This document shows, one piece after another, positions 23,649 through 48,615 of a DNA stretch of 64,000 nt. The position numbers and the translations under genes were made by a program. The notes beneath the pieces are model-generated. The model saw only the letters and a program-made list of their open reading frames with translations. It was not told where the DNA came from and did no database searches. How positions within the stretch are numbered: position 1 is the first letter of the stretch; every line of letters begins with the position of its first letter. Source of the DNA: an uncultured Victivallales bacterium (GTDB lineage: Bacteria > Verrucomicrobiota > Kiritimatiellia > UBA8416 > CAZWPN01); assembly GCA_964635275.1 (NCBI GenBank), contig CAZWPN010000001.1, forward strand, positions 4,149-68,148, read 5' to 3'.

Positions 23649-25067
23649 TTAACGCTTGCCGGGGCGGGCTGAAGGGCCTGTTGCGCGGTCGGCCATGCGG
23701 GAGAAAGAATCTTTGTAGGCACTCAGGTGGTGCCGTATTGCGGTGCAGCCGTAGGCGGCAAAAACAATGACGATAGGCATGAGCGGCCAACGGTAACGTA
23801 TCTCGGTTATCGTCAGGATTAACATGCCGGTGCATACAAGGAATAGCGCAACAAGCAGACTTATGCCAACGCCATCTATCTCCTCAACTGACTGCATCAC
23901 GGGAACAGGGACAGCAGCACCAGCGCCGCCATGTGAATGACCCATACCGCAATCGGCAGAATCCGCGTCGCTCTTCTTTCGCCGGCGAAACCGTAATACT
24001 CGCCAGGCAACAATCATGCCTATCGCGGACAACGGGTAAAGAATGCAAACATCCTGCATCCACATCACGATGGTGTTGATCCGACGGCTTCCCTCATACG
24101 AAGGGCGGAACAGGTTTACAGCACGCCGCCAGCATAACCATGCGTAGCGCCCAGGGTTCTCCCGTATGAATGTTGCCGCCTCATGGTGCAGAAAACGATC
24201 CTGCTGCACTTCACTGCGCCCATCCGGAGGCGGCAATCCACCAGTGTCGATTCCCTGCAGTATCCATCCTCCGAAACCGCCATTGGATTTGGGGTTGTTG
24301 GCGCGGTAGATACTGATCCCGCCTCCTGACGACAAGGGAATCCATGTTCCCATGGAAACATAATTGCGTGCGATCCATGGCGACCAACATAAGGCGAACG
24401 CCAGCGTCACACAGGCCAGGGCAGGAAGAGCTCGGTGGTGGTGGCGCAGCAACAGCACTAAAGCCAGTAAGGAAGCCACCGCCAGTCCGATGGGACGAGT
24501 CAACAAGCACAACCCAAGAACCGCACCGGTCGCCAGCGCCAAGGTGATGCTCTCGACCTTCCGCAAGAGATGCACCCCAAGCAAGACTCCAAGAAACAAC
24601 AGGGTAGTGTAGAGGCATTCCGTCATTATGTAACACGGCATCTGTACCAGTGGCAGGTAGAGTGCACCCATCAGCAAGGCCCACAGCCCAGCCTCGCGAC
24701 CAAAGACCGCGCACGCAATTTGCGAGATGAGCAGACACAACAGAACTGCCATGACGACTTGGACCACGCGTACCGCGACCACATTGGGTCCTGCTATCGC
24801 GAATACCGCCGCAACCAGACCGGCGTACCCCGGCATGATGCTGGCCGTTGGGCGTCCCTCGATACTGTAGCCCTCGGAATTGAGCAGAGACAGCGCCAGC
24901 CCGGTATAATCCGTGGAATCGGCTTCGTAAGTTCGATTCAGATAGTACCGATCGCCCGGGTGCATGAAGAAGTACAGTAAACGAACGGCGAGCGCCAGAG
25001 CCAGACCGGCAAAAAGCAGCCATCTGGTTGAACGGTGCACTGTGCGGGCACACGGGCGATCTGGCAT
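23649..25067 (-). CDS. Polytopic GT-C fold glycosyltransferase (ArnT/PMT/GT39-like).
   Basis: 10 or more TM helices (e.g. LLFAGLALALAV, VVMAVLLCLLISQIACAVF). Second GT-C enzyme in the locus. Confidence 0.5.
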   Translation of the reverse strand: MPDRPCARTVHRSTRWLLFAGLALALAVRLLYFFMHPGDRYYLNRTYEADSTDYTGLALSLLNSEGYSIEGRPTASIMPGYAGLVAAVFAIAGPNVVAVRVVQVVMAVLLCLLISQIACAVFGREAGLWALLMGALYLPLVQMPCYIMTECLYTTLLFLGVLLGVHLLRKVESITLALATGAVLGLCLLTRPIGLAVASLLALVLLLRHHHRALPALACVTLAFALCWSPWIARNYVSMGTWIPLSSGGGISIYRANNPKSNGGFGGWILQGIDTGGLPPPDGRSEVQQDRFLHHEAATFIRENPGRYAWLCWRRAVNLFRPSYEGSRRINTIVMWMQDVCILYPLSAIGMIVAWRVLRFRRRKKSDADSADCGMGHSHGGAGAAVPVPVMQSVEEIDGVGISLLVALFLVCTGMLILTITEIRYRWPLMPIVIVFAAYGCTAIRHHLSAYKDSFSRMADRATGPSARPGKR

Positions 25068-25155: not shown

Positions 25156-26085
25156 TCACATCTTGAGAGCAGATGGAATCCTGAGCCCTCTGAGGACCCC
25201 GCGCAAGATCGCCGCCGTCTCCCGCCAGTGCCCATTCCTCAATTCGGGATACAGACTGCCGATGAAGATGCTCCGTAACATGCGGAACAACAGACCGCAC
25301 CTTCCGCGCCGGGACTGCGAAAGGAAGAACCAGAGGCGATTCCTTGTCCTGAAAAAATAGAATTGCGGCGTACACTTGCCGAGCGAGGACGAAACATCAT
25401 GCAAGGCGCGCACGCGAGGCGATGCCCACAGCGAGAATCCCTGCCGCTTTATCTTCCAGCACCAGTCCGTGTCTTCAAGGTATATGACGTAATCGTCAAC
25501 AAACTCCCCGCAGCGTTCCACGGCAGCGCGCGTTGCACACAGAAACGCTGTTGGAATGGTGTCTACTTCCCTGTCATAGGCGAATGCACCGTCAATCTTC
25601 CCGCCCTGCCCCCCGTCAAACATGCTGCCGTCCGCCCAGTCTATCAGCCCGCCGCCGGCACACCAGCATACATCTGGCTCTGCTTGGTACGCGATGTGCG
25701 CTCCAACAGCCCCGACATTGCCCATCCGCCCGTTCCCCTCATCAAGAAACCTGACAGCCTGCTCCAGCGTATCAGGGAAAACGACAATGTCGTTATCCAT
25801 GAATGCCAACGCACGCCAATTCCTGGAGTCCCTGAAACGACGCAGGATGATGTTACGCCCTGCGGCCGCGCCTATGTTCGCAGCTTCCGTGTGTGTCGTT
25901 ACAAAAGGATAGACTGATGCCGCCTCGGCGATGCCCTGGCCTGATCCGTTATCCACGATCAGGACGTCAAAGGATGTATATGTGCTTCTGGCCAGACTCT
26001 CGAGACAAGCCATGGTCTTGTCCTTGTGGTTGCAGGCCAGTATTCCCACCAGCAAACGATCACAGTCACTTGCAGGGCTGACCAT
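25156..26085 (-). CDS. GT2-family glycosyltransferase.
   Basis: LLVGILACNHKDKT...VLIVDNGSGQG...AFMDNDIVV. Confidence 0.75.
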   Translation of the reverse strand: MVSPASDCDRLLVGILACNHKDKTMACLESLARSTYTSFDVLIVDNGSGQGIAEAASVYPFVTTHTEAANIGAAAGRNIILRRFRDSRNWRALAFMDNDIVVFPDTLEQAVRFLDEGNGRMGNVGAVGAHIAYQAEPDVCWCAGGGLIDWADGSMFDGGQGGKIDGAFAYDREVDTIPTAFLCATRAAVERCGEFVDDYVIYLEDTDWCWKIKRQGFSLWASPRVRALHDVSSSLGKCTPQFYFFRTRNRLWFFLSQSRRGRCGLLFRMLRSIFIGSLYPELRNGHWRETAAILRGVLRGLRIPSALKM

Positions 26086-28283
26086 CACATCCCACCCCCT
26101 GTAACCTGCCGGATCCACTCCTCCTGCCACCGCCGCAAAGAATAGCCGGCAACGATGCGCTCCCTTGCGCGCCGGCCCATCGCCAGACGCATGGTCTCGT
26201 CGACCGCGAGCGCCTCAATCAATTGCGCCCAGTCTTCCGTTCCCCGGGCGTGGTATCCGCAAATGCCATGCTCCACAATCCGCGCATTGACACCGACTGG
26301 CGAGACAATCGGCGCAATGCCCAGCGCCATGTACTGCACGGCCTTGAACCCGCACTTGCCCAGACACCAGGAATCGTCCCGCAGAGGCATCAGCCCGATA
26401 TGCGAACCGACCAGATCCTGCACCTCTGTGTCAAGGTTCCACGGCACCAACTCCATCCCTAGAGGCCCGACATCTCGGGGATCAATGTCAGGAAACCTGT
26501 CACAGACGATGCGAAGAACAAGCCCGCCACGATCCTTCAGGGCCTCGGCGGCTTGTCTCAGGGCCGGAATGATGTCCTCGAGCATCGGCAATGTGCTTCG
26601 TTGCCCGACCCAGACAAGACGAAGCGGAGCGCCATCTTGCCGCAAACCGGAAACTTCGGAATACCAGTAGCGCCGACAATCCAGCACCGTCGGAATAACA
26701 ACGGCATGGCCCCCGTGACGCGCAGATGACTCCGCCAGGAATTCATTGCCGGCGATAACCGCGGTCGCGGATTTCACCAGAGATACCGCCTCGCCGGGAT
26801 TCTGCAGGCGACCCATAAGACCCCGGAAAGGCAGACACCCGGCTCCGCCAAGAACATCGTCATCCAGATCATAGGCGCAACTGACTGCATTCCTGCCCAG
26901 CAAGCCCAGCATCCCGCGCCAGCGGGATGGAGTCAGCGCCTTCTGAACCAGCACATGGCCAAAAAGCCGCGCTTGGCGAAGTTGATACCGTCTTAGCAGC
27001 AGGTGAAAGAAAAGCCATGCCGTCGACACGAAGCGGCGACTGCCTGGTGTCGGCAGGCTGAAGTGTTTTACGCTGTACCCGGCGGACTGAAGGCCTGGAA
27101 TGTACTGCAGCACCCGGTAACGAGTGCTCGGCTGGCCCAGGTCGCCCACGGTGTAAAGAGCCACTCTCTTGCCCAGACCGACCTCGCCGGAGGAACGCGC
27201 AGGCGATCGCCGCGACGCCTCGGCGTAGACGTCTTCGTACTGTCTGGCTATGACGCGCGGATCATGCCTCTCACGCACAACCGCCTGTGCCCTTGCAGCG
27301 ATGGATGAACACTGCCCCGGCCGATCGAGGGCCAAACTCATGGCGCCCGCGAGTTCCTTCTCGTTTCCTGGATTGACCAGAAGACCAAGATCGCCACCGT
27401 CTAACAGTTCCGGAACGCCTCCGCAGGCAAAGGCCACCACCGGAACCCCCTTGCCCATGGCTTCCAGGATCGCGTTGGGACTCGACTCCATTGTGGATGC
27501 ATGCACATACAAGTCAGCGCGGGCGAGAACGCCGGCTACGTTGTCGCGGCGCCCCAGGAAATGGACTCTGTCCCGCAGCCCGAGCGTCCCGGCGAGATCC
27601 TGCAGGGTCTGTCGTCTGTCCCCCTCGCCCACAAGCCACAGGGACGCACTCGCCTTGCCGCACAGAACGGCAAAGGCGCGCAGCAAGATGTCATGCCCCT
27701 TGCCAGGCCAGAAGTTGGCAACGTAGACCATTGTCTTCCCACACGCCTGCGGGAGCTCTTGCCTTTCGTCTGGCGGATCGAAAGGCAAGCTGAATGCATT
27801 TGGGATGGCATGCATCCTCCCGCTGTTCAGAAAGCTCTCGTGGGAACAGGCGTACTCCGCCGCCGCCAGCGAGTTGGCCACAACAGCATCTGCAAACAGA
27901 TTGCCGGCGCCCTGCCACAGTCTGTGCCATCGCGTCTGCCATGTCGCCAACTCGCGCCGCGCGGAAACAATGCATGGCACACCAAGCAGCCTCGCGGCAA
28001 GGTTGGCCCACAAATCAAACCCGAAAAGAAAGGTCTGGACGACATCCGGGCGAAACCGACGGATTTCGCGCATGAAAAACCAAAGACAACGCATGTTATG
28101 GGGCGGCGGGGCGCAGAGAACACGAACATCAATCCCTGGATCGACCGGAAAGGGCCGCCTTGACGGACGAATCGCAAGAATACGCACAGTGTGCCCCAGT
28201 TCCCGCATCTGGCAGGCCAGGATCATGAGCTGGCGCTCGGTGCCGCCGAGGTGCAGTTCGGGTATAATGTAAAGGATGCGCAT
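26085..28283 (-). CDS. Two-domain (tandem GT4) glycosyltransferase.
   Basis: 732 aa. First half MRILYIIPELHLGGTERQ...ESSPNAILEAMGKGVPVVA; a second GT-B unit follows. Confidence 0.75.
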   Translation of the reverse strand: MRILYIIPELHLGGTERQLMILACQMRELGHTVRILAIRPSRRPFPVDPGIDVRVLCAPPPHNMRCLWFFMREIRRFRPDVVQTFLFGFDLWANLAARLLGVPCIVSARRELATWQTRWHRLWQGAGNLFADAVVANSLAAAEYACSHESFLNSGRMHAIPNAFSLPFDPPDERQELPQACGKTMVYVANFWPGKGHDILLRAFAVLCGKASASLWLVGEGDRRQTLQDLAGTLGLRDRVHFLGRRDNVAGVLARADLYVHASTMESSPNAILEAMGKGVPVVAFACGGVPELLDGGDLGLLVNPGNEKELAGAMSLALDRPGQCSSIAARAQAVVRERHDPRVIARQYEDVYAEASRRSPARSSGEVGLGKRVALYTVGDLGQPSTRYRVLQYIPGLQSAGYSVKHFSLPTPGSRRFVSTAWLFFHLLLRRYQLRQARLFGHVLVQKALTPSRWRGMLGLLGRNAVSCAYDLDDDVLGGAGCLPFRGLMGRLQNPGEAVSLVKSATAVIAGNEFLAESSARHGGHAVVIPTVLDCRRYWYSEVSGLRQDGAPLRLVWVGQRSTLPMLEDIIPALRQAAEALKDRGGLVLRIVCDRFPDIDPRDVGPLGMELVPWNLDTEVQDLVGSHIGLMPLRDDSWCLGKCGFKAVQYMALGIAPIVSPVGVNARIVEHGICGYHARGTEDWAQLIEALAVDETMRLAMGRRARERIVAGYSLRRWQEEWIRQVTGGGM

Positions 28284-28285
28284 GG

Positions 28286-29317
28286 CTAATGTAACAAACC
28301 GGCAACGCTTCTCATCATGCCGCCAAATGGACCTATTTCCGCCTTGAATACCGGAAGCGGCCAGTCTTGCACATGAATCCGATGCAGTTCAAACAGATTG
28401 GAAGGAGGACACGGATTCGTCTTCCCCCCCACAAGACATGCATACCTGTAGCTGGCACCTTTCGCCAACTCCGTCATCCATGGCTCAAAGCTGGCGCTCG
28501 GATAGGAAAATCCATGCACAGCTCTGCGCAAATGCCGTTCAATCTCCAGCCTGGAATGCCGCAGCTCGTGTTCAACCCGACTTGGAGACAGTTGCGCAAG
28601 CTGGGGATGCGTCAACGTGTGCGACCCAATCTCCATGAGATGCTCAGGCATTCGTTCGACATGTTCACGGGTTAGCATAAGCCCATCGGCCACATCAGTC
28701 CCGGCGCGCTCTCCAGCCGCATGCTCCATCCGCTCGACGGCGGCAAGCAGTTCATCGTCTGGCAGCCGCTTCAACAGGTTCCACATCGAATGAACAGCCT
28801 CTCTGCGGGACACATCCCCGCCCACGGCAAATTCGTACACTCCATTCCGAAACTCAAGACTGAGTCGCTGCTTGCTGGTATGTCGGACTGCATGCTCGAC
28901 ACGATCGGTCCAAAGGACATCCGTACTGCCGGCAACCGATCCTGTCACATAGACGGATGCCGACGCGCCATGCCGTTCAAGAATTGGCGCCGCCTTCTCG
29001 GCAACGTCGGAATAGCCGTCGTCGAAAGTCACGGCCAGAACCTTAGGCGGCAACGGCACCCCGGCGTTCACCCGATCGACAATGTCGCAGAGCCTCATGA
29101 CGCTGAAGCGGCTGGCAACGTAGCCCATATGTGCATCGAAGTTCTCCGGCGAGACACACGGCCCGTAGGTCAGCGAAGGGGCATTCACCCGATGGTATGC
29201 GAGGATGTAAAGCTTCCGCGCGGCGTCGTAACTGAGAAGCCTGTCGGCAAGACCTGAAACACCGACGCAGCGACAAAGCGCCCGGTGAATAACATGAAGA
29301 ATCATTCGCCTGCTCAT
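28286..29317 (-). CDS. Polysaccharide deacetylase (CE4/NodB-homology) family; ArnD-like deformylase/deacetylase candidate.
   Basis: LAVTFDDGYSDV motif; ...IGSHTLTHP. Confidence 0.75.
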   Translation of the reverse strand: MSRRMILHVIHRALCRCVGVSGLADRLLSYDAARKLYILAYHRVNAPSLTYGPCVSPENFDAHMGYVASRFSVMRLCDIVDRVNAGVPLPPKVLAVTFDDGYSDVAEKAAPILERHGASASVYVTGSVAGSTDVLWTDRVEHAVRHTSKQRLSLEFRNGVYEFAVGGDVSRREAVHSMWNLLKRLPDDELLAAVERMEHAAGERAGTDVADGLMLTREHVERMPEHLMEIGSHTLTHPQLAQLSPSRVEHELRHSRLEIERHLRRAVHGFSYPSASFEPWMTELAKGASYRYACLVGGKTNPCPPSNLFELHRIHVQDWPLPVFKAEIGPFGGMMRSVAGLLH

Positions 29318-30141
29318 GGGACCGTCTTCACTTCATCAATAGCGCCTCGGCCAACGCGCTCCAGATAACGCGAGATAAGCCCATCGGCCAGACGCCTATT
29401 CATCTCCAACCGTCTGGCGAGGGTGAAATCGCGCGACAAGTACAGTTTTCCATCACACCATTGCGGAACACCGGGAAGCTTGCCGTTCTTGAAACCCGTC
29501 ACAGTTCTAGCCATCAGCTCCGTCCCAAGCGCAATAACCTTGCACTCCAACGTATGCAGGTTGTCGTCCTCGCAAATGGAAGGTCGCGCCGTCCTGATGA
29601 TATGACCGGAGTCTATCCCTGGATCGATGTAATGTATTGTCACACCAACATGCTGGGGCGCCTCGTTGTAAAGCGCGAAGAAAGTCGAATGCCCTCCCCG
29701 GTAGTACGGAGAGAGCCCCGTATGAATATTGACGGCAGCAAGCCGGGGCACTGAGATCAGGGGGGCACGCAGCAAACTGGTTCCAAACACCACCAGGAGA
29801 TCGGGCGAGAGCCTGGTGGCAAGCTCGACGGTTTCCGGTGAGTTTATGTCCTGAGTAACTACGACAGAATGGGCTCTGATTGCCGACGGCAGAACTGTTC
29901 CGAACCACTTGGCGTGTGTCCTGCTCTCTTCAGCCTCATCTGACCTGAGCATCGACTTCCTGACCAGATTGGCCATAAGGGTAAGGGGGCGGCGGCGGCT
30001 GCCGCGCCACAGCCTACCCAACCTGTCTGCGGCAGAATAGCGCTGCTCAACAATCACTCCGGCGATCTCATTCTCTGCCGCCAATCTCTCAACAAAGCGT
30101 GTTTGCCTCGCCTCATCTGCTGTCAGTATCAGCAAACGCAT
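29314..30141 (-). CDS. Formyltransferase (Fmt/ArnA N-terminal domain family).
   Basis: MRLLILTAD...VFGTSLLRAPLI...AVNIHTGLSPYYRGGHSTFFALYN (N10-formyl-THF formyltransferase core with HxSLLPxxRG-like block). Confidence 0.75.
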   Translation of the reverse strand: MRLLILTADEARQTRFVERLAAENEIAGVIVEQRYSAADRLGRLWRGSRRRPLTLMANLVRKSMLRSDEAEESRTHAKWFGTVLPSAIRAHSVVVTQDINSPETVELATRLSPDLLVVFGTSLLRAPLISVPRLAAVNIHTGLSPYYRGGHSTFFALYNEAPQHVGVTIHYIDPGIDSGHIIRTARPSICEDDNLHTLECKVIALGTELMARTVTGFKNGKLPGVPQWCDGKLYLSRDFTLARRLEMNRRLADGLISRYLERVGRGAIDEVKTVP

Positions 30142-30381
30142 TGTCTTTCTCCGCCCGCGTGGTTCGCTGCATGGAGAAACCCGCCTAAATACAGACGGGA
30201 CGACGACGCGGCAGCGAATGGCCCTGGCTCTCTGATGATGCACTCAATAGCATTTACAGAAACAACCCTGTAGGCAACTTGGCACGCCTTGGACCATCGG
30301 AGAGCCAAGCACTCCGAACACTGAACGGTGTTGGCGCAAGATACGGCCCACGATTCCTTGCACAATGAGCAAACCATCCCG

Positions 30382-31251
30382 CTACCTCCCACGGGACCTT
30401 CCCCGACAGCCGCCAAGCAGTCCGTACGCATAACCAAGCGCGTAGACAAGATCGCCCAGGCCGCGAATGTAGCTTCCAGTCAGCAGACGCATGGATGTAC
30501 GAAAGGGATAGCCAATGATGCGGCGCCACAACGGGCGATGCAGCGATTCGCCCTTCCATTCCGTGTATTCCGCCGTATCATGGACCTCGCCGGGATTATG
30601 CAACTGCGCGTATGCCGAACCCCGCCCATTGCGCCAGAACATCTTCACAAGGTCCGCGACGCTGCCGGGCACAGGGTGTGACACCTTAAGGTCAGGCACC
30701 ATTACCACGCGATAACCCCTGTCCCGCAGCCTCCTGCGAAGTACCGGGTCGAGACCTCTGACAATGTCCTCAGGTTCACGGCCTATCTCCTTGAAAACTT
30801 CCCGGCGAAAGACGCAGCAACCGTGACAAGCCATGTCGCTATCGGTAATCCTGTCGGCAACCGGCATGTTGAAACGCGGGAATTCGCGCGCCACCCTGCG
30901 CTGGAAAGGAGTCGCGTCTGTCGGCTGGACTATTGCCGCCCCTGCCATGCCGATCCCTGGGTCGTCGCGAACGACGTTCATCAGCTTGCTGATCATATCT
31001 ACGTCGGCCACGCGCGAATCATCATCCAGGATGATGATAGCCTCTCCGACCGCCCGATCGGCGGCAATATTGATCGCCTTCCCTTGCGGACTAACACCCA
31101 CAACCATGATGATCTCGAACTCCCTGAATCGCTGTGCCTTAAGGTCGCGCAACAGGAGAGCCACATTGCCGTTGCGGTCTCCATCCGACGAAGGAATAAG
31201 GATGGATGCCACTACATTCCCTTCAGAGACAACTTCGTGGACAATCTTCAT
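30382..31251 (-). CDS. GT2 glycosyltransferase, polyprenyl-phosphate sugar transferase-like (ArnC/DPM1-like).
   Basis: VASILIPSSDGDRN...EIIMVVGVSPQG...IIILDDDS. Confidence 0.65.
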   Translation of the reverse strand: MKIVHEVVSEGNVVASILIPSSDGDRNGNVALLLRDLKAQRFREFEIIMVVGVSPQGKAINIAADRAVGEAIIILDDDSRVADVDMISKLMNVVRDDPGIGMAGAAIVQPTDATPFQRRVAREFPRFNMPVADRITDSDMACHGCCVFRREVFKEIGREPEDIVRGLDPVLRRRLRDRGYRVVMVPDLKVSHPVPGSVADLVKMFWRNGRGSAYAQLHNPGEVHDTAEYTEWKGESLHRPLWRRIIGYPFRTSMRLLTGSYIRGLGDLVYALGYAYGLLGGCRGRSRGR

Positions 31252-32195
31252 CGCTTGATTCCCTCAAGCAAATTGCCCCCGCGTATCGCCTCAACAACAC
31301 GTTCGGAAGTCAACTGCTTCATGCACGGGTAGTCGTCCGGGATGTCCGAAGTGATCCCAAGCGGGCAGATTCCGGGCGTTCCCATGCGACCGACAGTCCA
31401 GCATCCCTGGCAGGCAACCGGGGATAGCACCGCGTGCATGTTCTTGCGGCGCCCGAAAGCACTTTCCACGTCCACGGGGCCACAGAGCACGAGAGTCGGA
31501 ATCCCGACCGCTGCCGCCAGGTGTGCCAAACCGGAATCGGGACCCATATAGAGCCGACACCGCGAAATCGCGTATGCCGTTTCCGCAATGCTCAGTTTGT
31601 CAGTATAGTCCTGGCCCACGCCGGCCCGCTCACAGTCTTTCCCGACCTCCACAAAGGCAACGTCACCTGCAAATTCCCGGATGGCGGCGCAGGTATCGCG
31701 CAAGTGCTTGGCCGGCCAACTCTTGCATTTCCAACCGGCGCCGCACGAGCAAGCCACCACCAGACCGGCCTTTGGCAACGCCCGTCTCAGGGCGTCATTC
31801 TCCTCGATACGAACCTCCGGTTCGATGTGGCGATATGGCACTCCATGCGCCCTACAGAGATGTTCCAACCGCGACACGCTGCGCGCGTCATCCTTGGCAA
31901 AGATGTACCGGTCACAATCGAATTCGCTCAGATCACTCCTGACCTGTACGTGAGAATTCCCGTGCAGCAACTCCGGGTAGTTGACCGACACAGTTATCTG
32001 TGCCGTCGGATACCGGGCTCGGACCAGTTCATAGAACGGTATCGCCAGGACCTCGTCGCCCAGCCGCCACTTGTTCTCGATGTGAACGTGCAGTTCCAGT
32101 CCCAACAGAGTCTTTGCCGAGCACCTTGCGCCGCGCAAGCAACGCCTCGCCACTCTACCCAAACGACTCGGTATCCGCCCCAGCCCGACAAGCAT
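31248..32195 (-). CDS. GT9-family glycosyltransferase (heptosyltransferase-like).
   Basis: YMGPDSGLAHLAAAVGIPTLVLCGP, the diagnostic GT9 C-terminal motif. Confidence 0.8.
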   Translation of the reverse strand: MLVGLGRIPSRLGRVARRCLRGARCSAKTLLGLELHVHIENKWRLGDEVLAIPFYELVRARYPTAQITVSVNYPELLHGNSHVQVRSDLSEFDCDRYIFAKDDARSVSRLEHLCRAHGVPYRHIEPEVRIEENDALRRALPKAGLVVACSCGAGWKCKSWPAKHLRDTCAAIREFAGDVAFVEVGKDCERAGVGQDYTDKLSIAETAYAISRCRLYMGPDSGLAHLAAAVGIPTLVLCGPVDVESAFGRRKNMHAVLSPVACQGCWTVGRMGTPGICPLGITSDIPDDYPCMKQLTSERVVEAIRGGNLLEGIKR

Positions 32196-32217: not shown

Positions 32218-34146
32218 TTGCCACGGACGCAAGCGGGCTGTATTGTAACAGAGATGTGCGGCAAGTCATCCACTAACTGGGCATTTGACATGGCCTTGCC
32301 GGCGGCCTTTGCCCTGTGCGCATGGGGTTTCGGCGGCGAAGACTACCGCTTTTCAGGCGCCGCTCTCGCGGTGCTATTCTCCGTTGCGGCCATTACCGTG
32401 CTTTGCACAATGCGCGGCCGTGAAGAACTTGACCTCCCTCGACTGCGTTGCCTTCTTCCTGCAGCCTGCCTCATGGCTCTGGCTGTCGCCATGACAATCT
32501 TCTCCGTGAACCGGTTCGCTTCCCTCGTAGGCATCGTGCATACAGGCGCCCTGGCGGTTGCATTCCTGATGGTTGCTTCCGCGCCGGCAAGAAGTGCGCA
32601 CCGCATCCTGGCGGCGTGCGTCACGGTAGTAGGCATGCTTTCAGTCTACGGCTTCATGCAGTCCGTTGGTTTCTTCGAAAGCGGCTACTGGTATAATGGC
32701 CAGTTTGCCTCCCGGTTCGTCAACAGCGCACACTTCGGCGCCATGGTGGCCGTGGCAATAGTCGTTGGGGTTGGTCTAGCGCCATGCCTCAAGGGAGCGT
32801 GGCGTTTCGCCGTGCTGGCCTCCATCCCCGCAAACGCCGCCGCCATGCTGCAGACGAGGTCCCGGGCGGTATGGATACTAGCGGCGTTGGTCTACACATT
32901 TGTTTTCCTCTTCGCCGGCATTAGACTGCGCAGTCAGGAGAGAAGAACGGGGCGCTGGGTTCTCGCCGGCATGTTGCTTGCGGTACTATGTCTTGGCGCA
33001 GGGGGTTACCTGCTGCGCCACAGCATATCGGACCGCTTCGCTCAACTCGCGACGACGCAATTCCATGCGATCTTCCATCGGGCGGACATACTGCGGGACA
33101 GTGCGATGATGATCCGCGCCAACCCCATGGGCGTTGGCGCCGGGTGCTACGAGGATGCAATCCTCCGCTACAAGATTGGAGTGGACCGCAGCGTCGCAAA
33201 CCACGCGCACAACGAGGTGTTCGAAATAGTCGGCGAACTCGGCTGGGCCGCATTTCCCCTTCTAATCTGGCTCATCGTCGCAATCGGCAGGGATTTCCGG
33301 GCCGCTGCTTCACGGTGCGCTCCCAACTCCCTCTTGTTGGCGAGCGCGCTGGCGGCCGGACTTTCGATCTATGCCTTGCACAGTCTCGTTGATTTCCCGC
33401 TCCGTCTCATGGCGAACAGTCTCTTCGCTGCGTTCATCCTGGGAGCGCTTCTCAACAAAGAGTTCACGGGTGCCGAAGGCATGAGGACCTTGGCGGCAGG
33501 GCGGCTCGCGAAGCTGCTGCTGCCCGCACTGTGCGCCGCCCTGGCTGCGTTCTGCTGTCTGCAAGCGGCGTCTGCAATCTGGACGGCTTCGGCGGAATCG
33601 CACCTGTTGCGCCTTCGTATGGAGGATGCGCGCCAGGCGCTTGTGAAATCGTCGTTCTGGATGCCGCTGGATCCTCGGACGGCCTACCTGAGAGGCAACG
33701 CCGCCTACGCCATGTCGGCCATCGCGCCGGAACCGCGGAAGTCCGCGCTTAGATCTGAAGCCCTTGAGTGGTTGCGCCGGGCCGCCAGCATTGCTTCAAC
33801 TCATGCCGACACTCATCTGCGCCTTGCCTGGATTCGTGCCGATCTTGGACAGTCGAGGGATGCCATTGAATCTTTTCGCAAGGCCATAAGTTGCGATCCG
33901 AAACTAGGCATCTACCACTTCTATTACGCCGAGTACCTGCTGGCGCTCAAGCAATGGCACGAGGCGGCGAAGGAATACAGAACCGCATTGGAGACCTTCA
34001 ACGACAACAGCATAATAGGGGCGGAGAGTATTTTCAGGAAGATCCTCGTGCAGTCTGGAGACGAGGCAATTGCGGAAGAGGCATGCCCGTCCGAGCCAGG
34101 CTTCCGAGCCAGCCTCGAGAGGGTTTTGCGGGAGCGCAAGAAGTGA
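32218..34146 (+). CDS. O-antigen ligase/polymerase-family (Wzy_C/WaaL-like) membrane protein with a C-terminal TPR-repeat domain.
   Basis: About 10 TM helices; NHAHNEVFEIVGELGW (Wzy_C motif). The C-terminal ~200 aa have TPR-like repeats (AIESFRKAISCDPKLGIYHFYYAEYLLALKQWHEAAKEYRTALE). The real start is possibly at the internal ATG ~32254 or ~32290. Confidence 0.7.
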   Translation: MPRTQAGCIVTEMCGKSSTNWAFDMALPAAFALCAWGFGGEDYRFSGAALAVLFSVAAITVLCTMRGREELDLPRLRCLLPAACLMALAVAMTIFSVNRFASLVGIVHTGALAVAFLMVASAPARSAHRILAACVTVVGMLSVYGFMQSVGFFESGYWYNGQFASRFVNSAHFGAMVAVAIVVGVGLAPCLKGAWRFAVLASIPANAAAMLQTRSRAVWILAALVYTFVFLFAGIRLRSQERRTGRWVLAGMLLAVLCLGAGGYLLRHSISDRFAQLATTQFHAIFHRADILRDSAMMIRANPMGVGAGCYEDAILRYKIGVDRSVANHAHNEVFEIVGELGWAAFPLLIWLIVAIGRDFRAAASRCAPNSLLLASALAAGLSIYALHSLVDFPLRLMANSLFAAFILGALLNKEFTGAEGMRTLAAGRLAKLLLPALCAALAAFCCLQAASAIWTASAESHLLRLRMEDARQALVKSSFWMPLDPRTAYLRGNAAYAMSAIAPEPRKSALRSEALEWLRRAASIASTHADTHLRLAWIRADLGQSRDAIESFRKAISCDPKLGIYHFYYAEYLLALKQWHEAAKEYRTALETFNDNSIIGAESIFRKILVQSGDEAIAEEACPSEPGFRASLERVLRERKK

Positions 34147-35057
34147 GCGCGAAATCCAGACTTCTTGCCAAAAGACTCGCGTTGTACGCTCTGGCGGCCG
34201 TGGGCTACGCCCTGTGCCTTCCTCTCCTTAGACTGTTGCGTGTGCATTCCGGCCGGGAGCGGTTCAGGATCTTCAACTACCATAGCGTCAGTTCAATGCG
34301 CAAGCATGCCACAACGGTGACTTCGGAAGTATTCGCCAACCACATATCGCTCATCCGAGACAGGGCCACCATCGTAGGCATGGACGATATTCTGGAATCG
34401 GTCAGGGGCGACGCATTGCTGGCGCCAAACGCCGTAGCGATCACCCTCGACGACGGGTACGCGGATAACCTTTACGGCGCACTCCCCGTTTTCATGCGCT
34501 ACAGGGTCCCGGCAGTGTGCTTTGTGACCGTGGCATTCATCGGAACCGACAAACTGCTGCCGCACGACGCCGCCGACACCGTTGAAGCAGCCCGTCTTCT
34601 TTCGTGGGCCGAGGTCCGCAAACTTGAAGACGGCGGTGTGGAGATAGGATCGCACGGACTGACGCACATCCGGCTATCGAAGGCGCCATCCCCCACCGTT
34701 CATACAGAGGAAATACGGAGAAGTTACGACATACTGAGCAGTCGTCTCCACAAACCGCCAAGGTGCATCGCCTTCCCATTCGGACAAAAGGGAGACTACA
34801 CGCCCGAGACGCTTAAAGAGTCGAAAGAAGCAGGTTACCTTTGCGCCTTTTCAGCGCAGTACGGATGGAATTGCGGAAGATCCAACCCATACGAACTCCG
34901 TAGAATCGGCATCGACGGCAGCGACACTCTCTTCACGCTCAGGGCAAAACTGAACGGCGCTCTGGATCTCTTGAGTGTCACGCGGACCAGGCCGGTCCGA
35001 GCCATCATTGCCTGGGTAAACACGTTGACCAAACGGTGCATCAGATGCGAGTACTAA
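34143..35057 (+). CDS. Polysaccharide deacetylase (CE4) family protein; second copy.
   Basis: NAVAITLDDGYADN; ...IGSHGLTHI. The GTG start overlaps the ligase TGA (GTGA). Confidence 0.75.
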   Translation: MSAKSRLLAKRLALYALAAVGYALCLPLLRLLRVHSGRERFRIFNYHSVSSMRKHATTVTSEVFANHISLIRDRATIVGMDDILESVRGDALLAPNAVAITLDDGYADNLYGALPVFMRYRVPAVCFVTVAFIGTDKLLPHDAADTVEAARLLSWAEVRKLEDGGVEIGSHGLTHIRLSKAPSPTVHTEEIRRSYDILSSRLHKPPRCIAFPFGQKGDYTPETLKESKEAGYLCAFSAQYGWNCGRSNPYELRRIGIDGSDTLFTLRAKLNGALDLLSVTRTRPVRAIIAWVNTLTKRCIRCEY

Positions 35058-36172
35058 TGGTTACGGTCGATTTCATCCCGCACAGCGACGGGGTGAGCAC
35101 TCTAAGCTACAACTACGCCAGAAGACTGGCGGAACTCGGACACGAGGTGGAAGTCGTCGGCCCGAAATCCGAAGGACAGGAAGATGCCGACAGCAAAGCG
35201 CCCTACACTATTCGAAGGTTTCCTGGCTACCACCTTGGCCCCCTTCGATTTATCCCATTTGCGGCACACGTTATACGAGCCATTCGAGAGCGGAAACCAG
35301 ACGTACTCATGGCGATGAACATCGGATACGGCGGGATTCTATCCCTGTTTCATCCGACTGCACGGCGCATTCCCGTCATTGTAATGGCCTATGGCTTGGA
35401 GTTCAGGAAGTTCCGGAACAACCCCGTTTTCTCGGCGCTCTACCGTCACATCTACAAGAGGAGCGTCCTCGTCATCGCAGTCAGCAACTACACCAGAAGT
35501 GAACTTCTCGAGCTTGGAGCTCCGGCGGAACGTGTGAAGATGGTCTACCCGGGAACATTCAAGCCGGCCCAGATGCATGAATCCGCCCCGCCGGCGCCCA
35601 GAGCAGGCAAGCCCGTCATCGGCACATGCGGCCGTCTGATACGTCGCAAAGGCCACGATATCGTGATCCGCGCACTTCCAATGGTTATAGCGACTCACCC
35701 CGGAATCGAATACGTTATCGTCGGTAAAGGCCCGGAAGCGGATAACCTCCGCGCTCTGGCCATCTCACTCGGAGTCGAAAAACATGTCACATTCCTCGGG
35801 GAGGTACCAGCCGACGAACTACCGTCATTCCTGAAATCCCTCGATGTGTTTGTCATGCCCAGCAGAAACGACCGAATGACAGGACATGTGGAGGGATTCG
35901 GCATCGTCTATCTGGAGGCTGCCGTATACGGTGTGCCTTCCATCGGCACGACCACCGGCGGAATCCCGGAAGCCATCGTGGATGGTGAGACAGGAATGCT
36001 TGTTCCTGACGAATCGCCAGCCGCCCTGGGGACTGTCCTGTCCGATCTCCTTAAGCGCCCTGCCGAAGTCTGTCGTCTAGGGCAGAACGCCAAACACAGG
36101 GCTGAGACCGAATTCCTGTGGGACCATCAGGTCGATCGCTTTAACACCATGCTCTTGAACGCAGGAAAGTGA
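35045..36172 (+). CDS. GT4-family glycosyltransferase.
   Basis: MRVLMVTVDFIPHSDGVS...VEGFGIVYLEAAVYGVPSIGTTTGG. Confidence 0.8.
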   Translation: MRVLMVTVDFIPHSDGVSTLSYNYARRLAELGHEVEVVGPKSEGQEDADSKAPYTIRRFPGYHLGPLRFIPFAAHVIRAIRERKPDVLMAMNIGYGGILSLFHPTARRIPVIVMAYGLEFRKFRNNPVFSALYRHIYKRSVLVIAVSNYTRSELLELGAPAERVKMVYPGTFKPAQMHESAPPAPRAGKPVIGTCGRLIRRKGHDIVIRALPMVIATHPGIEYVIVGKGPEADNLRALAISLGVEKHVTFLGEVPADELPSFLKSLDVFVMPSRNDRMTGHVEGFGIVYLEAAVYGVPSIGTTTGGIPEAIVDGETGMLVPDESPAALGTVLSDLLKRPAEVCRLGQNAKHRAETEFLWDHQVDRFNTMLLNAGK

Positions 36173-36184
36173 GAGGACTGCCGA

Positions 36185-37030
36185 ATGGAATCCACAGCAA
36201 CACAGCGACAAGACGGAGCTGGTCAGACAGCCATCCCGCGGTTGAAAGTTGCCATTGTCACCAGGACAGGACGGCCATCCGGGGCCAGATTCGCCATGGC
36301 CGTGGGACAAAGTGGACATCAGATCAGCGGCATCATCGCCGAGAAGCGATCCGCCATGCTCTGGCGGGCTATACGCCGCCTCGGGATTGGGGGCTTTCTG
36401 AGGAAATACCCGCATGCCTGGCTTGCAGCACGCATCAGCAATACAATTCAAACCATACTCGGTCGGCGGATCTCAGGAAATAGTAATGTCCTCGCGGCAT
36501 GCCCATCGGCGGCTGATACAGCAAAACGGTTCTCGGCCCCCTATGCGGAGGTCAGCGACTTGAACTCCTCGGATTCCCTCGCGATACTAAAGCGGTGGAA
36601 CCCTGACGTCCTTGTTGTCGCAAATGCTCCGGTACTCAAGGATCATGTGATGGGCACTGCACGACTGGGAGGAATCAATTTCCATTCCGGCCACTTGCCG
36701 GAATACGGCGGAGTGGCCTCCGAATTCTGGGCCATGTTCGATGGAAACACCACAGCCTGGGCCACACTGCACCAAGTGTTACCTACACTGGATTCAGGGG
36801 ACATCCTCGCCGAGGAGCCTGTGCCTATAGATGCATCAGACACGCCGGAAACGCTTCACGAGCGCTGCGTTGCAAGGGGCGTGTCAATGATAGGAGCGGT
36901 TCTGGACACCATGGCATCCGGATCTTGTAGGCCGGTCAGGTCCCCTGGTCCGGCTGTTCTGCGGAAATGGCCGTCGTCGCAGGAGCACAGCGCTCTATTA
37001 CGCAGGCTGCATGCCACCGTCATCACATGA
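36185..37030 (+). CDS. Formyltransferase-family protein; second copy, Formyl_trans_N-like.
   Basis: LKVAIVTRTGRPSG...DVLVVANAPVLKDHVM...GINFHSGHLPEYGG. Confidence 0.6.
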   Translation: MESTATQRQDGAGQTAIPRLKVAIVTRTGRPSGARFAMAVGQSGHQISGIIAEKRSAMLWRAIRRLGIGGFLRKYPHAWLAARISNTIQTILGRRISGNSNVLAACPSAADTAKRFSAPYAEVSDLNSSDSLAILKRWNPDVLVVANAPVLKDHVMGTARLGGINFHSGHLPEYGGVASEFWAMFDGNTTAWATLHQVLPTLDSGDILAEEPVPIDASDTPETLHERCVARGVSMIGAVLDTMASGSCRPVRSPGPAVLRKWPSSQEHSALLRRLHATVIT

Positions 37031-38850: not shown

Positions 38851-38871
38851 GTCGCTGTGCCGCTGTCCCAG

Positions 38872-48603: not shown

Positions 48604-48615
48604 ACGGGGGGCGTA

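What the first reader, a model, noticed from the sequence alone, without database searches (positions are those of the whole stretch)
28286..32195. Arn-like (aminoarabinose-type) module, arnC-arnA(N)-arnD order, embedded in the locus
GT2 polyprenyl-P sugar transferase-like, then Fmt-family formyltransferase, then CE4 deformylase-like. This is the same order as E. coli arnC-arnA-arnD. A second formyltransferase + CE4 pair lies at 34143..37030. The locus also has a DegT aminotransferase (4937..5989) and an SDR decarboxylase/epimerase (7993..9123). These could supply the ArnB and ArnA-C-terminal functions. Two ArnT/PMT-like GT-C enzymes lie at 16545..18113 and 23649..25067. Together this suggests a transiently N-formylated amino sugar carried on undecaprenyl phosphate and transferred periplasmically, here inside an ABC-transporter-type glycan locus rather than a lipid A modification operon.
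Basis: partly seen in the sequence, partly recalled or inferred. Interest (0 to 1): 0.6.

Follow-up and report, generated by a model that had tools for sequence, protein, structure and literature searches.

The report
Conserved formyltransferase–deacetylase sugar-editing gene cassette
The genes are real, but they are not an aminoarabinose (Arn) pathway: they are two copies of a widespread, uncharacterised gene pair (a formyltransferase next to a GlcNAc-type deacetylase) that most likely swaps an N-acetyl group for an N-formyl group on a sugar during surface-glycan assembly.

Summary
Observation partly confirmed. On the minus strand, 28286-32195 holds four translationally coupled genes, not three: GT9-like, GT2, Formyl_trans_N (FT1) and CE4 deacetylase (CE4_1). 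The second "pair" is a trio: CE4_2, GT4, FT2.

Arn membership fails.
- No GT2 in the locus resembles ArnC: there are no transmembrane helices and no model hit.
- Neither CE4 resembles ArnD. The CE4_1 model matches the GlcNAc de-N-acetylases PplD, PgaB and IcaB; ArnD ranks 30th (TM 0.30).
- FT1 and FT2 keep the Asn/His/Asp catalytic triad but form separate clades, equally distant from ArnA-N, Fmt and the sugar N-formyltransferases.

What is there is a tightly conserved FT-CE4 cassette.
- It was found in 240 species across about 9 phyla, usually with a 4-bp gene overlap.
- The two partners co-evolve (r=0.96).
- Fusions exist: FT-CE4, and GT4-FT.
- It sometimes stands alone among housekeeping genes.
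- It is absent between the same flanking genes in a related locus.

Relatives of CE4_1 pair with or fuse to other acyl- or methyl-transferases. Aminotransferases are rarely nearby (3 of 85 loci).

Best reading (about 0.45, inferred): the CE4 removes an N-acetyl group in the cytoplasm and the FT re-acylates the amine with formyl. Arn-style transient formylation remains a rival (about 0.2).

The parts
31248..32195 (-). GT9-like glycosyltransferase (315 aa). Only the C-terminal Rossmann half matches.
   Evidence: Pfam Glyco_transf_9 E 5.4e-12. Orthologues sit next to the same GT2 or the cassette in L001, L005 and L090.
30382..31251 (-). Soluble GT2 (GT-A) glycosyltransferase, 289 aa, with a DDD motif. 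It is not ArnC-like.
   Evidence: Pfam Glycos_transf_2 E 3.5e-8. No ArnC BLASTP hit and no TM helix. The only weak PDB hit is an archaeal GT2, 6yv7. Its 56%-identical orthologue in L089 works without an adjacent FT-CE4.
29314..30141 (-). FT1: formyltransferase-fold enzyme (275 aa from ATG 30141; the ORF extends to 30243). It belongs to an uncharacterised clade with the motif N-x-HTGLSPYYRGG, a roughly 50-aa basic three-helix insertion and no OB C-domain.
   Evidence: Pfam Formyl_trans_N E 1.3e-14. N138, H140 and D177 are invariant in 30 sequences. AF2 pLDDT 93.5. Foldseek places ArnA-N, WbkC, Fmt and FDH as near-equal matches. The family profile finds 1651 representatives at E<=1e-30.
28286..29317 (-). 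CE4_1: cytoplasmic PgaB/IcaB/PplD-type de-N-acetylase (343 aa) with an inserted segment of about 90 residues (helices plus a beta-hairpin in the model) between the TFDDG and GSHTxTH motifs. It overlaps FT1 by 4 nt.
   Evidence: Pfam Polysacc_deac_1 E 4.5e-21. D99, D100, H233 and H237 are invariant; Y41 and H42 are nearly invariant. AF2 pLDDT 93.8. Foldseek top hits are PplD, PgaB, BpsB and IcaB, with ArnD at rank 30. No signal peptide or TM helix.
26085..28283 (-). Double GT4 glycosyltransferase (732 aa), 2 nt downstream of CE4_1.
   Evidence: Pfam Glycos_transf_1, two stretches. Orthologues follow CE4 in L001 and follow GT2 directly in L089.
32218..34146 (+). Wzy_C (O-antigen ligase/polymerase-like) membrane protein with C-terminal TPR repeats. 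It heads the second module.
   Evidence: Pfam Wzy_C E 1.7e-11 plus TPR. The same Wzy_C-CE4-GT4-FT order is found in L001, L089 and L090.
34143..35057 (+). CE4_2: second CE4 deacetylase (304 aa from GTG 34143). It lacks the long inserted segment of CE4_1 and has an N-terminal hydrophobic helix.
   Evidence: Pfam Polysacc_deac_1 E 6.4e-20. NCBIfam PgaB 83 bits and IcaB 32 bits, with no ArnD hit. 42-44% identical to the CE4 genes of L001 and L089. Hydropathy 1.85.
35036..36172 (+). GT4 glycosyltransferase (378 aa) lying between CE4_2 and FT2.
   Evidence: Pfam Glycos_transf_1 E 8e-40. It is fused to the FT in L001 (657 aa, GT4 + Formyl_trans_N). A GT4 follows the FT-CE4 fusion in L087.
36185..37030 (+). 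FT2: second, divergent formyltransferase-fold enzyme (281 aa). It is 26% identical to FT1 and has the same basic insertion.
   Evidence: Pfam Formyl_trans_N E 5.4e-14. Only about 15 close homologues were found. Its type is fused to a CE4 in P0214.
37023..37844 (-). PIG-L/LmbE-family de-N-acetylase, convergent with FT2.
   Evidence: Pfam PIG-L E 6.6e-17. NCBIfam BshB1 58 bits. The adjacency to the WecA-like gene is conserved in L008, L089 and L090.
37729..38850 (-). WecA/MraY-family polyprenyl-phosphate HexNAc-1-P transferase (initiating enzyme).
   Evidence: Pfam Glycos_transf_4 E 2.7e-28. NCBIfam wecA 89.5 bits. 11+ hydrophobic segments.

Best explanation
The finding covers one of two copies of a conserved two-enzyme 'amine-editing' cassette embedded in an ABC-transporter-type surface-glycan locus.

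Proposed mechanism:
1. A glycosyltransferase (the GT2 or double GT4 for copy 1, the GT4 for copy 2) installs a HexNAc residue on the lipid-linked glycan at the cytoplasmic face.
2. The PgaB/PplD-type CE4 removes the N-acetyl group, exposing a free amine.
3. The adjacent formyltransferase uses N10-formyl-tetrahydrofolate to formylate that amine, so the finished glycan carries an N-formyl hexosamine.

The strongly basic three-helix insertion of the FT is proposed to hold it at the membrane or on the pyrophosphate-lipid acceptor.

Shown:
- the gene anatomy
- intact catalytic residues in both enzymes
- near-obligate FT-CE4 linkage, with fusions and co-evolution
- CE4 similarity to GlcNAc de-N-acetylases
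- that the cassette is dispensable

Inferred:
- the order of the two reactions
- the identity of the sugar
- the lipid-linked nature of the substrate
- folate use
For: 1. Linkage. 78 of 85 loci have a full-length CE4 directly beside the FT, mostly with a 0-4 nt overlap. Four more have a split or truncated CE4 beside it. One (L076) has it about 1 kb away. Two contigs are too short to judge. The loci include Cyanobacteria, Acidobacteriota, Omnitrophota, Alpha- and Gammaproteobacteria, Campylobacterota, Bacteroidota, Gemmatimonadota and Chloroflexota.
2. Co-evolution. FT and CE4 pairwise identities correlate with r=0.96; Mantel test 0 of 2000 permutations.
3. Fusions. FT-CE4 in P0214/L087, followed only by a GT4. 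GT4-FT in L001.
4. CE4_1 is a PgaB/IcaB/PplD-type enzyme. Foldseek gives PplD at E 2e-14 with TMt 0.83, then PgaB, BpsB and IcaB. The metal and acid/base residues H42, D99, D100, H233 and H237 are conserved. PplD is a GlcNAc de-N-acetylase (PMC8807736).
5. Both proteins are probably cytoplasmic. CE4_1-type proteins mostly lack a signal peptide or TM helix, and an FT needs cytoplasmic folate.
6. Relatives of CE4_1 fuse with or sit beside other transferases. Fusions: LbH acyltransferase (P0146), Acetyltransf_6 (P0170) and methyltransferases (P0136, P0190). Neighbours: ACP + AMP-ligase + GNAT-like sets. This fits a 'deacetylate, then re-decorate the amine' pattern.
7. A self-contained two-step edit explains cassettes that stand alone among housekeeping genes, as in Roseibium L002 and Cyanobium L025. 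It also explains the rarity of nearby aminotransferases, 3 of 85 loci.
8. The cassette is dispensable. In L089 the orthologous GT2 and double GT4 abut directly without it.
9. The FT catalytic triad N138/H140/D177 is invariant. The insertion carries a mean net charge of +8.4, against +3.2 for the rest of the protein.
Against: - No biochemical data exist for any member of either clade.
- The direction of the two reactions is not determined by any computation here.
- The precedents ArnA/ArnD and def-fmt show that a formyltransferase and a deformylase can be encoded together even when another step lies between them.
- ArnA-N is nominally the top structural neighbour of FT1.
- No polysaccharide with a 2-formamido sugar could be tied to a cassette-bearing organism.
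- CE4_2-type proteins have an N-terminal hydrophobic helix in 3 of 4 cases. If that helix spans the membrane, the deacetylase would be periplasmic and could not feed a cytoplasmic FT.
- The locus also encodes DegT, and an SDR with the T-S-E motif typical of UDP-GlcA decarboxylases. An NDP-amino-sugar acceptor for the FT is therefore available in this particular genome.
- All characterised sugar N-formyltransferases act on NDP-sugars (my own knowledge).
Confidence: 0.45

Rival explanations
1. Arn-like transient formylation. The FT formylates an NDP-amino sugar. A glycosyltransferase (GT4, GT2, or one encoded elsewhere) transfers the N-formyl sugar to a lipid or glycan acceptor. The CE4 then removes the formyl group and leaves a cationic amino sugar.
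For: - The enzyme trio FT + GT + CE4 matches ArnA-N/ArnC/ArnD, and all three are linked by fusions.
- ArnA-N is the top Foldseek hit for FT1.
- This locus has a DegT (ArnB 29% identity, E 1e-36) and an SDR with an ArnA-C-like STSEVYG motif (ArnA-C 29% identity, E 5e-41).
- L008 has PIG-L, WbqC, DegT, WecA, FT and CE4 in a row.
- CE4_2's possible TM anchor would allow deformylation after flipping.
- ArnC accepts only the formylated donor (PMC12690121), which shows that such gating exists.
Against: - The CE4s group with acetyl-specific PplD, PgaB and IcaB rather than ArnD.
- There is no ArnC-type Pren-P GT2 in the locus.
- Only 3 of 85 loci have an aminotransferase within 10 kb.
- Stand-alone cassettes have no source of amino-sugar nucleotide nearby.
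- The GT2 orthologue functions without FT1-CE4_1 in L089.
- Relatives of CE4_1 pair with other acyl- or methyl-transferases, which fits amine decoration better than deprotection.
Confidence: 0.2
2. Coupled in regulation only. The FT is an ordinary sugar N-formyltransferase that makes a permanent N-formyl-amino sugar nucleotide. The CE4 independently de-N-acetylates a different HexNAc residue of the same glycan. The two are co-inherited because both decorate one polymer, not because they act consecutively on one nitrogen.
For: - FT1's best NCBIfam and PDB sequence hits include dTDP-4-amino-4,6-dideoxyglucose formyltransferases (PRK07579 at 57.8 bits; Rv3404c at E 4e-13).
- DegT and WbqC are present in the locus.
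- CE4 deacetylases are common stand-alone tailoring enzymes.
Against: - Near-obligate adjacency with 4-nt overlaps across about 9 phyla, FT-CE4 fusion proteins and r=0.96 co-evolution are unusual for two independent tailoring steps.
- Cassettes occur alone, without any aminotransferase or other sugar genes.
- All scores to sugar N-formyltransferase models are far below their cut-offs.
Confidence: 0.15
3. The cassette acts on a non-glycan or non-lipid-linked amine, for example a small-molecule glycoside of the mycothiol/bacillithiol type made by the GT4, a peptidoglycan precursor, or a lipid head group. Its presence in glycan loci would then be secondary.
For: - There are stand-alone pairs among housekeeping genes.
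- The stand-alone [FT-CE4 fusion]+GT4 operon in L087 resembles the GT4 + deacetylase logic of MshA/MshB and BshA/BshB (the precedent is from my own knowledge).
- FT-CE4-DedA synteny occurs in picocyanobacteria.
Against: In the window and in L001, L003, L004, L005, L007, L008 and L089 the cassette is embedded in, and translationally coupled with, polysaccharide genes.
Confidence: 0.1

Closest known systems
Arn (PmrHFIJKLM) pathway: ArnA-N formyltransferase, ArnC, ArnD deformylase
   Same: - The same three enzyme superfamilies (Formyl_trans_N, a glycosyltransferase, CE4) are encoded together, in the order GT2-FT-CE4.
- The FT keeps the ArnA N102/H104/D140-equivalent triad.
- ArnA-N is nominally the best structural match (TM 0.61).
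   Different: - No protein reaches any Arn equivalog model.
- The GT2 lacks ArnC's JM and TM helices.
- The CE4s are PgaB/PplD-like, not ArnD-like (ArnD TM 0.30).
- The FT lacks ArnA's OB subdomain and fused decarboxylase, and has a roughly 50-aa basic insertion.
- The cassette usually lacks an aminotransferase, a decarboxylase, ArnT and ArnE/F nearby.
- It is part of a Wzm/Wzt glycan locus, not a lipid A modification operon.
NodC/NodB/NodA, with the related LpxC/LpxD, MshA/MshB/MshC and BshA/BshB/BshC logic (precedents from my own knowledge)
   Same: - A glycosyltransferase installs GlcNAc, a cytoplasmic deacetylase frees the amine, and a third enzyme re-acylates it.
- NodB is also a cytoplasmic CE4.
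   Different: - The re-acylating enzyme here is a folate-type formyltransferase, not NodA, LpxD or a ligase.
- There is no sequence relationship beyond the shared CE4 fold.
- The substrate is unknown.
PplD / PgaB / IcaB GlcNAc de-N-acetylases
   Same: - They are the best structural and profile matches for CE4_1 and CE4_2.
- They share the N-terminal YH motif, the DD motif and the HxxxH metal site.
   Different: - Those enzymes are extracytoplasmic and leave a free amine.
- CE4_1 has no export signal, carries an inserted segment of about 90 residues, and is tied to a formyltransferase.
Sugar N-formyltransferases (WbkC, VioF, WbtJ, WlaRD, Rv3404c, PseJ)
   Same: - The same fold and catalytic triad.
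- Comparable sequence and structure scores to FT1.
- They occur in O-antigen-type loci.
   Different: - They act on NDP-amino sugars made by a neighbouring aminotransferase.
- They lack the basic insertion.
- They are not paired with a CE4.
PEP-CTERM/exosortase-associated EPS loci with a CE4 deacetylase, ACP, AMP-ligase and acyltransferase
   Same: - Close relatives of CE4_1 sit in such loci (L092, L093, L088).
- L005 carries the FT-CE4 cassette beside EpsH/EpsI.
- The AsnB-type amidotransferase of the window best matches the XrtA-system model.
   Different: - The window has no exosortase.
- The acyl-activation genes are replaced by a formyltransferase.

Membership tests
ArnC (Und-P Ara4FN transferase; Pren-P GT2) | GT-A domain followed by two juxtamembrane and two transmembrane helices (PMC12690121) | tested here: not met
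   In a Kyte-Doolittle scan, ArnC shows 2 TM segments. GT2 30382-31251 and the four other GT2 proteins in the locus show none.
ArnC (Und-P Ara4FN transferase; Pren-P GT2) | Sequence match to ArnC or its equivalog model (NF007986, cut-off 529 bits) | tested here: not met
   BLASTP of E. coli ArnC finds no hit to GT2 30382-31251 at E<=10. The NCBIfam ArnC model hits only GT2 10746-11804, at 32.6 bits. The PDB sequence search returns no ArnC, GtrB or DPMS.
ArnA N-terminal formyltransferase | Catalytic Asn-His-Asp triad of folate-dependent transformylases | tested here: met
   N138, H140 and D177 are invariant in 30 family members and align with ArnA N102, H104 and D140.
ArnA N-terminal formyltransferase | Equivalog-level similarity, C-terminal OB subdomain and fusion to the UDP-GlcA decarboxylase | tested here: not met
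   NCBIfam ArnA scores 54 bits (FT1) and 61 bits (FT2) against a cut-off of 777. Identity is 29% over 143 aa. There is no OB domain or fusion. Foldseek does not separate ArnA-N from WbkC, Fmt or FDH.
ArnD (Und-P-Ara4FN deformylase) | Sequence or profile similarity to ArnD | tested here: not met
   No ArnD family appears among the NCBIfam hits (E<=0.01) for CE4_1 or CE4_2. BLASTP finds no hit at E<=10. hhalign of the CE4_1 family against ArnD gives probability 14.5%.
ArnD (Und-P-Ara4FN deformylase) | Structural proximity to ArnD (8T0J) compared with other CE4 enzymes | tested here: not met
   8T0J ranks 30th, with E 3.5e-3 and TM 0.30/0.37. PplD, PgaB, BpsB and IcaB occupy ranks 1-13 with E 1e-14 to 1e-8.
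ArnD (Und-P-Ara4FN deformylase) | Preference for formyl over acetyl substrates | not testable with these tools
   This needs an enzyme assay.
ArnT (GT-C, GT83) | Sequence similarity to ArnT | tested here: not met
   BLASTP of ArnT finds no significant hit. The two multi-TM proteins match Pfam PMT_2 at only 30.7 and 23.6 bits.
Arn pathway as a whole | ArnB-type aminotransferase, UDP-GlcA decarboxylase, and ArnE/F flippase | tested here: inconclusive
   DegT scores 145.5 bits on the ArnB model (cut-off 631), and PseC scores higher. The SDR has an STSEVYG motif and is 29% identical to ArnA-C, but its best models are LegB and RmlB. ArnE/F were not searched for. Both genes lie more than 19 kb from the FT genes.
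Formyl_trans_N superfamily (Pfam PF00551) | Pfam hit above the gathering score, and a formyltransferase fold | tested here: met
   54.9 and 52.8 bits against a cut-off of 26.1. The AF2 model has pLDDT 93.5, and all top Foldseek hits are formyltransferases.
NDP-sugar N-formyltransferases (WbkC/VioF/WbtJ type) | Equivalog similarity, and an adjacent sugar aminotransferase that supplies the amine | tested here: not met
   PRK07579 scores 57.8 bits against a cut-off of 238. A DegT homologue lies within 10 kb in only 3 of 85 family loci.
CE4, PgaB/IcaB/PplD-type de-N-acetylases | NodB domain with an Asp-Asp motif, an HxxxH metal site and an N-terminal (Y)H catalytic residue, plus closest structural neighbours in this clade | tested here: met
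   Pfam scores are 75.5 and 71.8 bits. D99, D100, H233 and H237 are invariant and Y41/H42 are at least 90% conserved. See the Foldseek ranking and the NCBIfam PgaB/IcaB hits. Equivalog cut-offs are not reached and there is no export signal, so these are a distinct subfamily, not PgaB orthologues.

The most novel reading that the evidence does not exclude
The FT1/FT2 clades would be the first formyltransferases that act on an amine freed in situ by a dedicated partner CE4 deacetylase on a lipid-linked (or otherwise assembled) glycan, rather than on a nucleotide-activated amino sugar. That would make this a portable two-gene cassette that rewrites N-acetyl to N-formyl. It is spread by horizontal transfer across at least nine phyla and can be plugged in between existing glycosyltransferase genes. 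This would be a new biosynthetic route to N-formyl sugars and a new acceptor class for the folate-dependent transformylase fold.
Probability: 0.4. Interest if true: 0.65.

Novelty: new variant of a known kind. Interest (0 to 1): 0.45.

Why it matters
If the reading is right, bacteria have a modular way to change the N-substituent of a hexosamine without building a new nucleotide-sugar pathway. This would alter the charge, antigenicity, and lysozyme, phage or lectin recognition of surface glycans.

The family is sizeable: 1651 clusters at 50% identity, in 240 GTDB species. It includes abundant freshwater picocyanobacteria and cultivable Roseibium. No member has been characterised, so annotation pipelines currently call these proteins 'methionyl-tRNA formyltransferase', 'PurN' or 'polysaccharide deacetylase'.

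For genome annotation, the practical message is that a GT2-FT-CE4 gene order is not sufficient evidence for an aminoarabinose or polymyxin-resistance pathway.

Tried and rejected
- Arn homology. I fetched the E. coli arn operon and ran BLASTP against all 31 ORFs of the locus. Only the generic ArnB/DegT, ArnA-C/SDR and ArnA-N/FT similarities appear. Rejected as evidence of membership.
- Placing FT1 by structure. Foldseek against the PDB does not discriminate between ArnA-N, WbkC, Fmt and FDH; all have E 1e-14 to 1e-11 and TM about 0.6. Sequence searches are equally flat.
- Literature. Searches for formyltransferase + polysaccharide deacetylase, for 2-formamido sugars such as GalNFoA and for WbqC returned nothing about this cassette. 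One apparent co-mention (PMC12815270) was irrelevant. The ArnD structure paper (PMC10914315) is not held.
- Source organism. An exact-sequence look-up of RibF and TruB shows only an unnamed 84.6-kb NCBI contig and Logan contigs. The taxon remains unknown. The closest relative of the module (L001, 48-53% identity) is an unnamed ENA metagenome contig.
- L064. One ORF appears to read through FT and the N-terminal part of CE4. This is a long-read MAG and the CE4 is split by a frameshift, so I do not count it as a fusion. P0214 is the fusion I rely on.
- CE4_2 as a periplasmic enzyme. Its N-terminal helix is hydrophobic in 3 of 4 orthologues, but not in L001 or in the FT-CE4 fusion. Left open.
- An ArnC-like partner among the other GT2 genes (25156-26130, 19923-20861, 10746-11804, 9566-10726). 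None was found.

Full report
**1. What is at the coordinates**

The window between about 1.6 kb and 40.1 kb is one large surface-glycan locus. Its genes are:
- a GDSL esterase, many GT4 and GT2 enzymes, WbqC-DegT, and an AsnB-type amidotransferase
- an SDR
- Wzm and Wzt (with the Wzt_C carbohydrate-binding domain) and a methyltransferase
- two PMT_2-like multi-TM proteins
- a Wzy_C/TPR protein, a PIG-L deacetylase, a WecA-like initiating transferase, and a TPR/NPCBM protein

It is followed by ribF-truB-infB-nusA.

The finding's span 28286-32195 matches ORF boundaries exactly but contains four minus-strand genes:
- GT9-like, 31248-32195
- GT2, 30382-31251
- Formyl_trans_N (FT1), 29314-30243. 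The start is most likely ATG 30141, because homologues begin at the corresponding MRLLIL.
- CE4 (CE4_1), 28286-29317

GT9/GT2 and FT1/CE4_1 overlap by 4 nt. CE4_1 is 2 nt from a 732-aa double GT4. A 240-nt gap precedes FT1.

The second "pair" is really Wzy_C, CE4_2 (34143-35057), GT4 (35036-36172) and FT2 (36185-37030). It misses one gene, and it is wrong in calling the GT2 polyprenyl-phosphate-transferase-like.

**2. Test of Arn membership**

I fetched the E. coli arn operon and compared it with all 31 ORFs of the locus.
- ArnC, ArnD and ArnT have no BLASTP hit (E<=10) to the proposed counterparts.
- ArnA-N is 29% identical over 143 aa to FT1 and 26% over 114 aa to FT2.
- ArnA-C is 29% identical to the SDR, and ArnB 29% to DegT. 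These are superfamily-level similarities.

ArnC-type enzymes are defined by a GT-A domain plus two juxtamembrane and two transmembrane helices (PMC12690121). A hydropathy scan finds those helices in ArnC but in none of the five GT2 proteins here.

NCBIfam's ArnC model hits only another GT2, at 32.6 bits against a cut-off of 529. GT2 30382-31251 finds only a weak archaeal GT2 in the PDB.

No ArnD family appears among the NCBIfam hits (E<=0.01) for either CE4; both hit PgaB and IcaB.

A profile of 32 CE4_1 relatives aligns to ArnD with only 14.5% probability.

A confident AF2 model of CE4_1 (pLDDT 93.8) is closest to PplD (E 2e-14, TMt 0.83), then PgaB, BpsB, BA0330 and IcaB. Salmonella ArnD (8T0J) ranks 30th with TM 0.30.

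That is what is found.

**3. The formyltransferases**

FT1 scores almost identically against dTDP-Qui4N formyltransferase, a generic formyltransferase model, Fmt and ArnA (54-58 bits). All are far below their cut-offs.

PDB sequence hits (Rv3404c and ArnA, both E about 5e-13) and Foldseek hits (ArnA-N, WbkC, Fmt, FDH; E 1e-14 to 1e-11, TM about 0.6) do not place it either.

Its homologues form a separate family of 275-295-aa proteins, named only by automatic pipelines. A profile search finds 1651 representatives of 50%-identity clusters at E<=1e-30.

In a 30-sequence alignment, N138, H140 and D177 are invariant. These align with ArnA N102, H104 and D140. The motif is N-x-HTGLSPYYRGG.

Compared with ArnA, the family lacks the OB C-domain. 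It also has a roughly 50-residue, three-helix insertion after strand 2 (model helices 37-47, 52-64 and 66-80). The insertion has a mean net charge of +8.4, against +3.2 for the rest of the protein. From my own knowledge, this is the position of Fmt's tRNA-binding loop 1, which is an acceptor-recognition site.

FT2 is 26% identical to FT1, has the same kind of insertion and belongs to a much rarer clade.

**4. A conserved cassette**

A pattern scan of one genome per GTDB species found 240 species with an FT1-type gene. I analysed 85 loci: five metagenome contexts plus the 80 loci returned by the scan.
- 78 have a full-length CE4 gene directly beside the FT on the same strand. It is mostly downstream with a 0-4 nt overlap, and upstream in Bacteroidota.
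- Four more have a frameshifted or truncated CE4 in the same place.
- One has the CE4 about 1 kb away.
- Two contigs are too short to judge.

FT and CE4 pairwise identities across 41 non-redundant loci correlate with r=0.96 (Mantel 0 of 2000).

Among all the window's proteins, only the CE4 is consistently co-located with the FT. DegT occurs in 3 of 85 loci, the SDR in 9 of 85, and the GT2 and GT9-like genes only in the two closest loci.

In Roseibium hamelinense and Cyanobium gracile the pair stands alone among housekeeping genes. In about 33 picocyanobacterial loci a DedA/VTT protein follows it.

Fusions exist:
- P0214 is FT-CE4 (550 aa). In L087 it is followed only by a GT4, in an otherwise unrelated neighbourhood.
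- In L001 the orthologues of the window's GT4 and FT2 are one 657-aa protein.

The block Wzy_C-CE4-GT4-FT / PIG-L-WecA-NPCBM recurs in L089 and L090.

In L089 the orthologues of GT2 30382-31251 (56% identity) and of the double GT4 (43%) abut directly, with no FT1-CE4_1 between them. Copy 1 therefore behaves as an insertable, dispensable cassette, and the GT2 does not depend on the FT.

**5. Which way round do the two enzymes work?**

Nothing computed here fixes the order. Several lines favour deacetylation followed by formylation.
- The CE4s belong structurally and by motif to the GlcNAc de-N-acetylase clade. H42, D99, D100, H233 and H237 are conserved. PplD is a GlcNAc de-N-acetylase (PMC8807736).
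- CE4_1-type proteins mostly lack export signals, so they share a compartment with a folate-dependent enzyme.
- Relatives of CE4_1 are fused to an LbH acyltransferase, an Acetyltransf_6 domain or methyltransferases. Others sit beside ACP + AMP-ligase + GNAT-like genes in exosortase-type EPS loci. The recurring theme is to free an amine and then decorate it.
- A two-step edit needs no third enzyme. That fits the stand-alone pairs and the rarity of nearby aminotransferases.
- The logic has precedents: NodC/NodB/NodA, LpxC/LpxD, and MshA/B/C (my own knowledge).

Points against:
- ArnA/ArnD and def-fmt show that a formylase and a deformylase can be encoded together.
- ArnA-N is nominally the top structural hit.
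- This genome does have DegT, and an SDR with the STSEVYG (T-S-E) motif that I associate with UDP-GlcA decarboxylases.
- L008 strings PIG-L, WbqC, DegT, WecA, FT and CE4 together.
- CE4_2-type proteins have an N-terminal hydrophobic helix in 3 of 4 cases. It is not hydrophobic in the FT-CE4 fusion.

My estimates are:
- editing model, about 0.45
- Arn-like transient formylation, about 0.2
- independent tailoring steps, about 0.15
- a non-glycan substrate, about 0.1

**6. Comparison with known systems, and novelty**

The module works with the same superfamilies as ArnA-N/ArnC/ArnD, but it is not a member of that system. The defining features of ArnC and ArnD were tested and not met. The ArnA-N features are met only at superfamily level.

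It is closest in kind to GT + deacetylase + N-acylase systems. The acylase here is a new clade of formyltransferase, and the deacetylase is a cytoplasmic PgaB/PplD-like CE4 with an inserted segment of about 90 residues.

I found no description of the cassette in the searchable literature. That search is limited, so I rate it a new variant of a known kind.

**7. Verdict**

- The Arn interpretation is supported only in that FT, CE4 and a glycosyltransferase form a functional unit.
- The mechanism proposed here is inferred, not shown.
- Interest is moderate (0.45). This is an ordinary glycan locus, but it exposes a sizeable, uncharacterised and experimentally tractable enzyme pair.

Noticed in passing
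window 57662-63994 (-): A 2110-aa ORF that runs off the window end. It has at least five PA14 domains and weak GLEYA and CBM6 matches. It looks like a giant carbohydrate-binding or adhesin-like surface protein.
   Followed up: no
window 7993-9123 (-): The SDR carries STSEVYG (T-S-E) plus YxxxK, which I associate with UXS/ArnA-C-type UDP-GlcA decarboxylases rather than 4,6-dehydratases. NCBIfam is ambiguous: LegB 176 bits, RmlB 167, ArnA 149, UXS 144, all below their cut-offs. Orthologues (about 49% identity) sit beside the GT9/GT2 genes in L001, L089 and L090.
   Followed up: partly
window 37023-40110 (-); L008, L089, L090: The PIG-L deacetylase and WecA-like transferase are a conserved neighbouring pair, joined by the TPR/NPCBM protein in L089 and L090. 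In Omnitrophota L008 the genes PIG-L, WbqC, DegT, WecA, FT and CE4 are consecutive. This suggests a de-N-acetylated initiating GlcN-PP-lipid.
   Followed up: partly
L025 11887-12552 and about 32 other picocyanobacterial loci: A DedA/VTT-domain membrane protein immediately follows the stand-alone FT-CE4 pair in Cyanobium/Synechococcus genomes. From my own knowledge, DedA proteins are linked to polyprenyl-phosphate recycling. The synteny could simply reflect shared ancestry.
   Followed up: partly
L089 1-2781 compared with window 26085-31251: The orthologous GT2 and double GT4 genes overlap directly in L089. In the window and in L001 the FT1-CE4_1 pair sits between them. This is a presence/absence polymorphism of the cassette.
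   Followed up: yes
P0146, P0170, P0136, P0190; L088, L092, L093: CE4_1-type deacetylases are fused to LbH, Acetyltransf_6 or methyltransferase domains. Others neighbour ACP + AMP-ligase + Orn/DAP-decarboxylase + AsnB sets typical of exosortase-associated EPS loci.
   Followed up: partly
L064 9968-11807: One ORF reads through FT and the N-terminal part of CE4. The rest of the CE4 is in another frame at the contig end. This is either a true fusion or frameshift errors in a long-read MAG.
   Followed up: partly
window 4227-5989 (+); L008, L089: WbqC-like (PF08889, E 1e-66) and the DegT aminotransferase are an overlapping, conserved pair. WbqC has no NCBIfam hit and I found no functional literature on it.
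   Followed up: partly
window 6071-7996 (+): The AsnB-type amidotransferase best matches the XrtA/PEP-CTERM-system amidotransferase model (550 bits, cut-off 817), although the window has no exosortase. AsnB homologues occur in 10 of 85 cassette loci. It may amidate a uronic acid.
   Followed up: no
window 53469-55889 (+), 48403-49269 (-), 105-788 (+): Three long ORFs (806, 288 and 227 aa) have no Pfam match.
   Followed up: no
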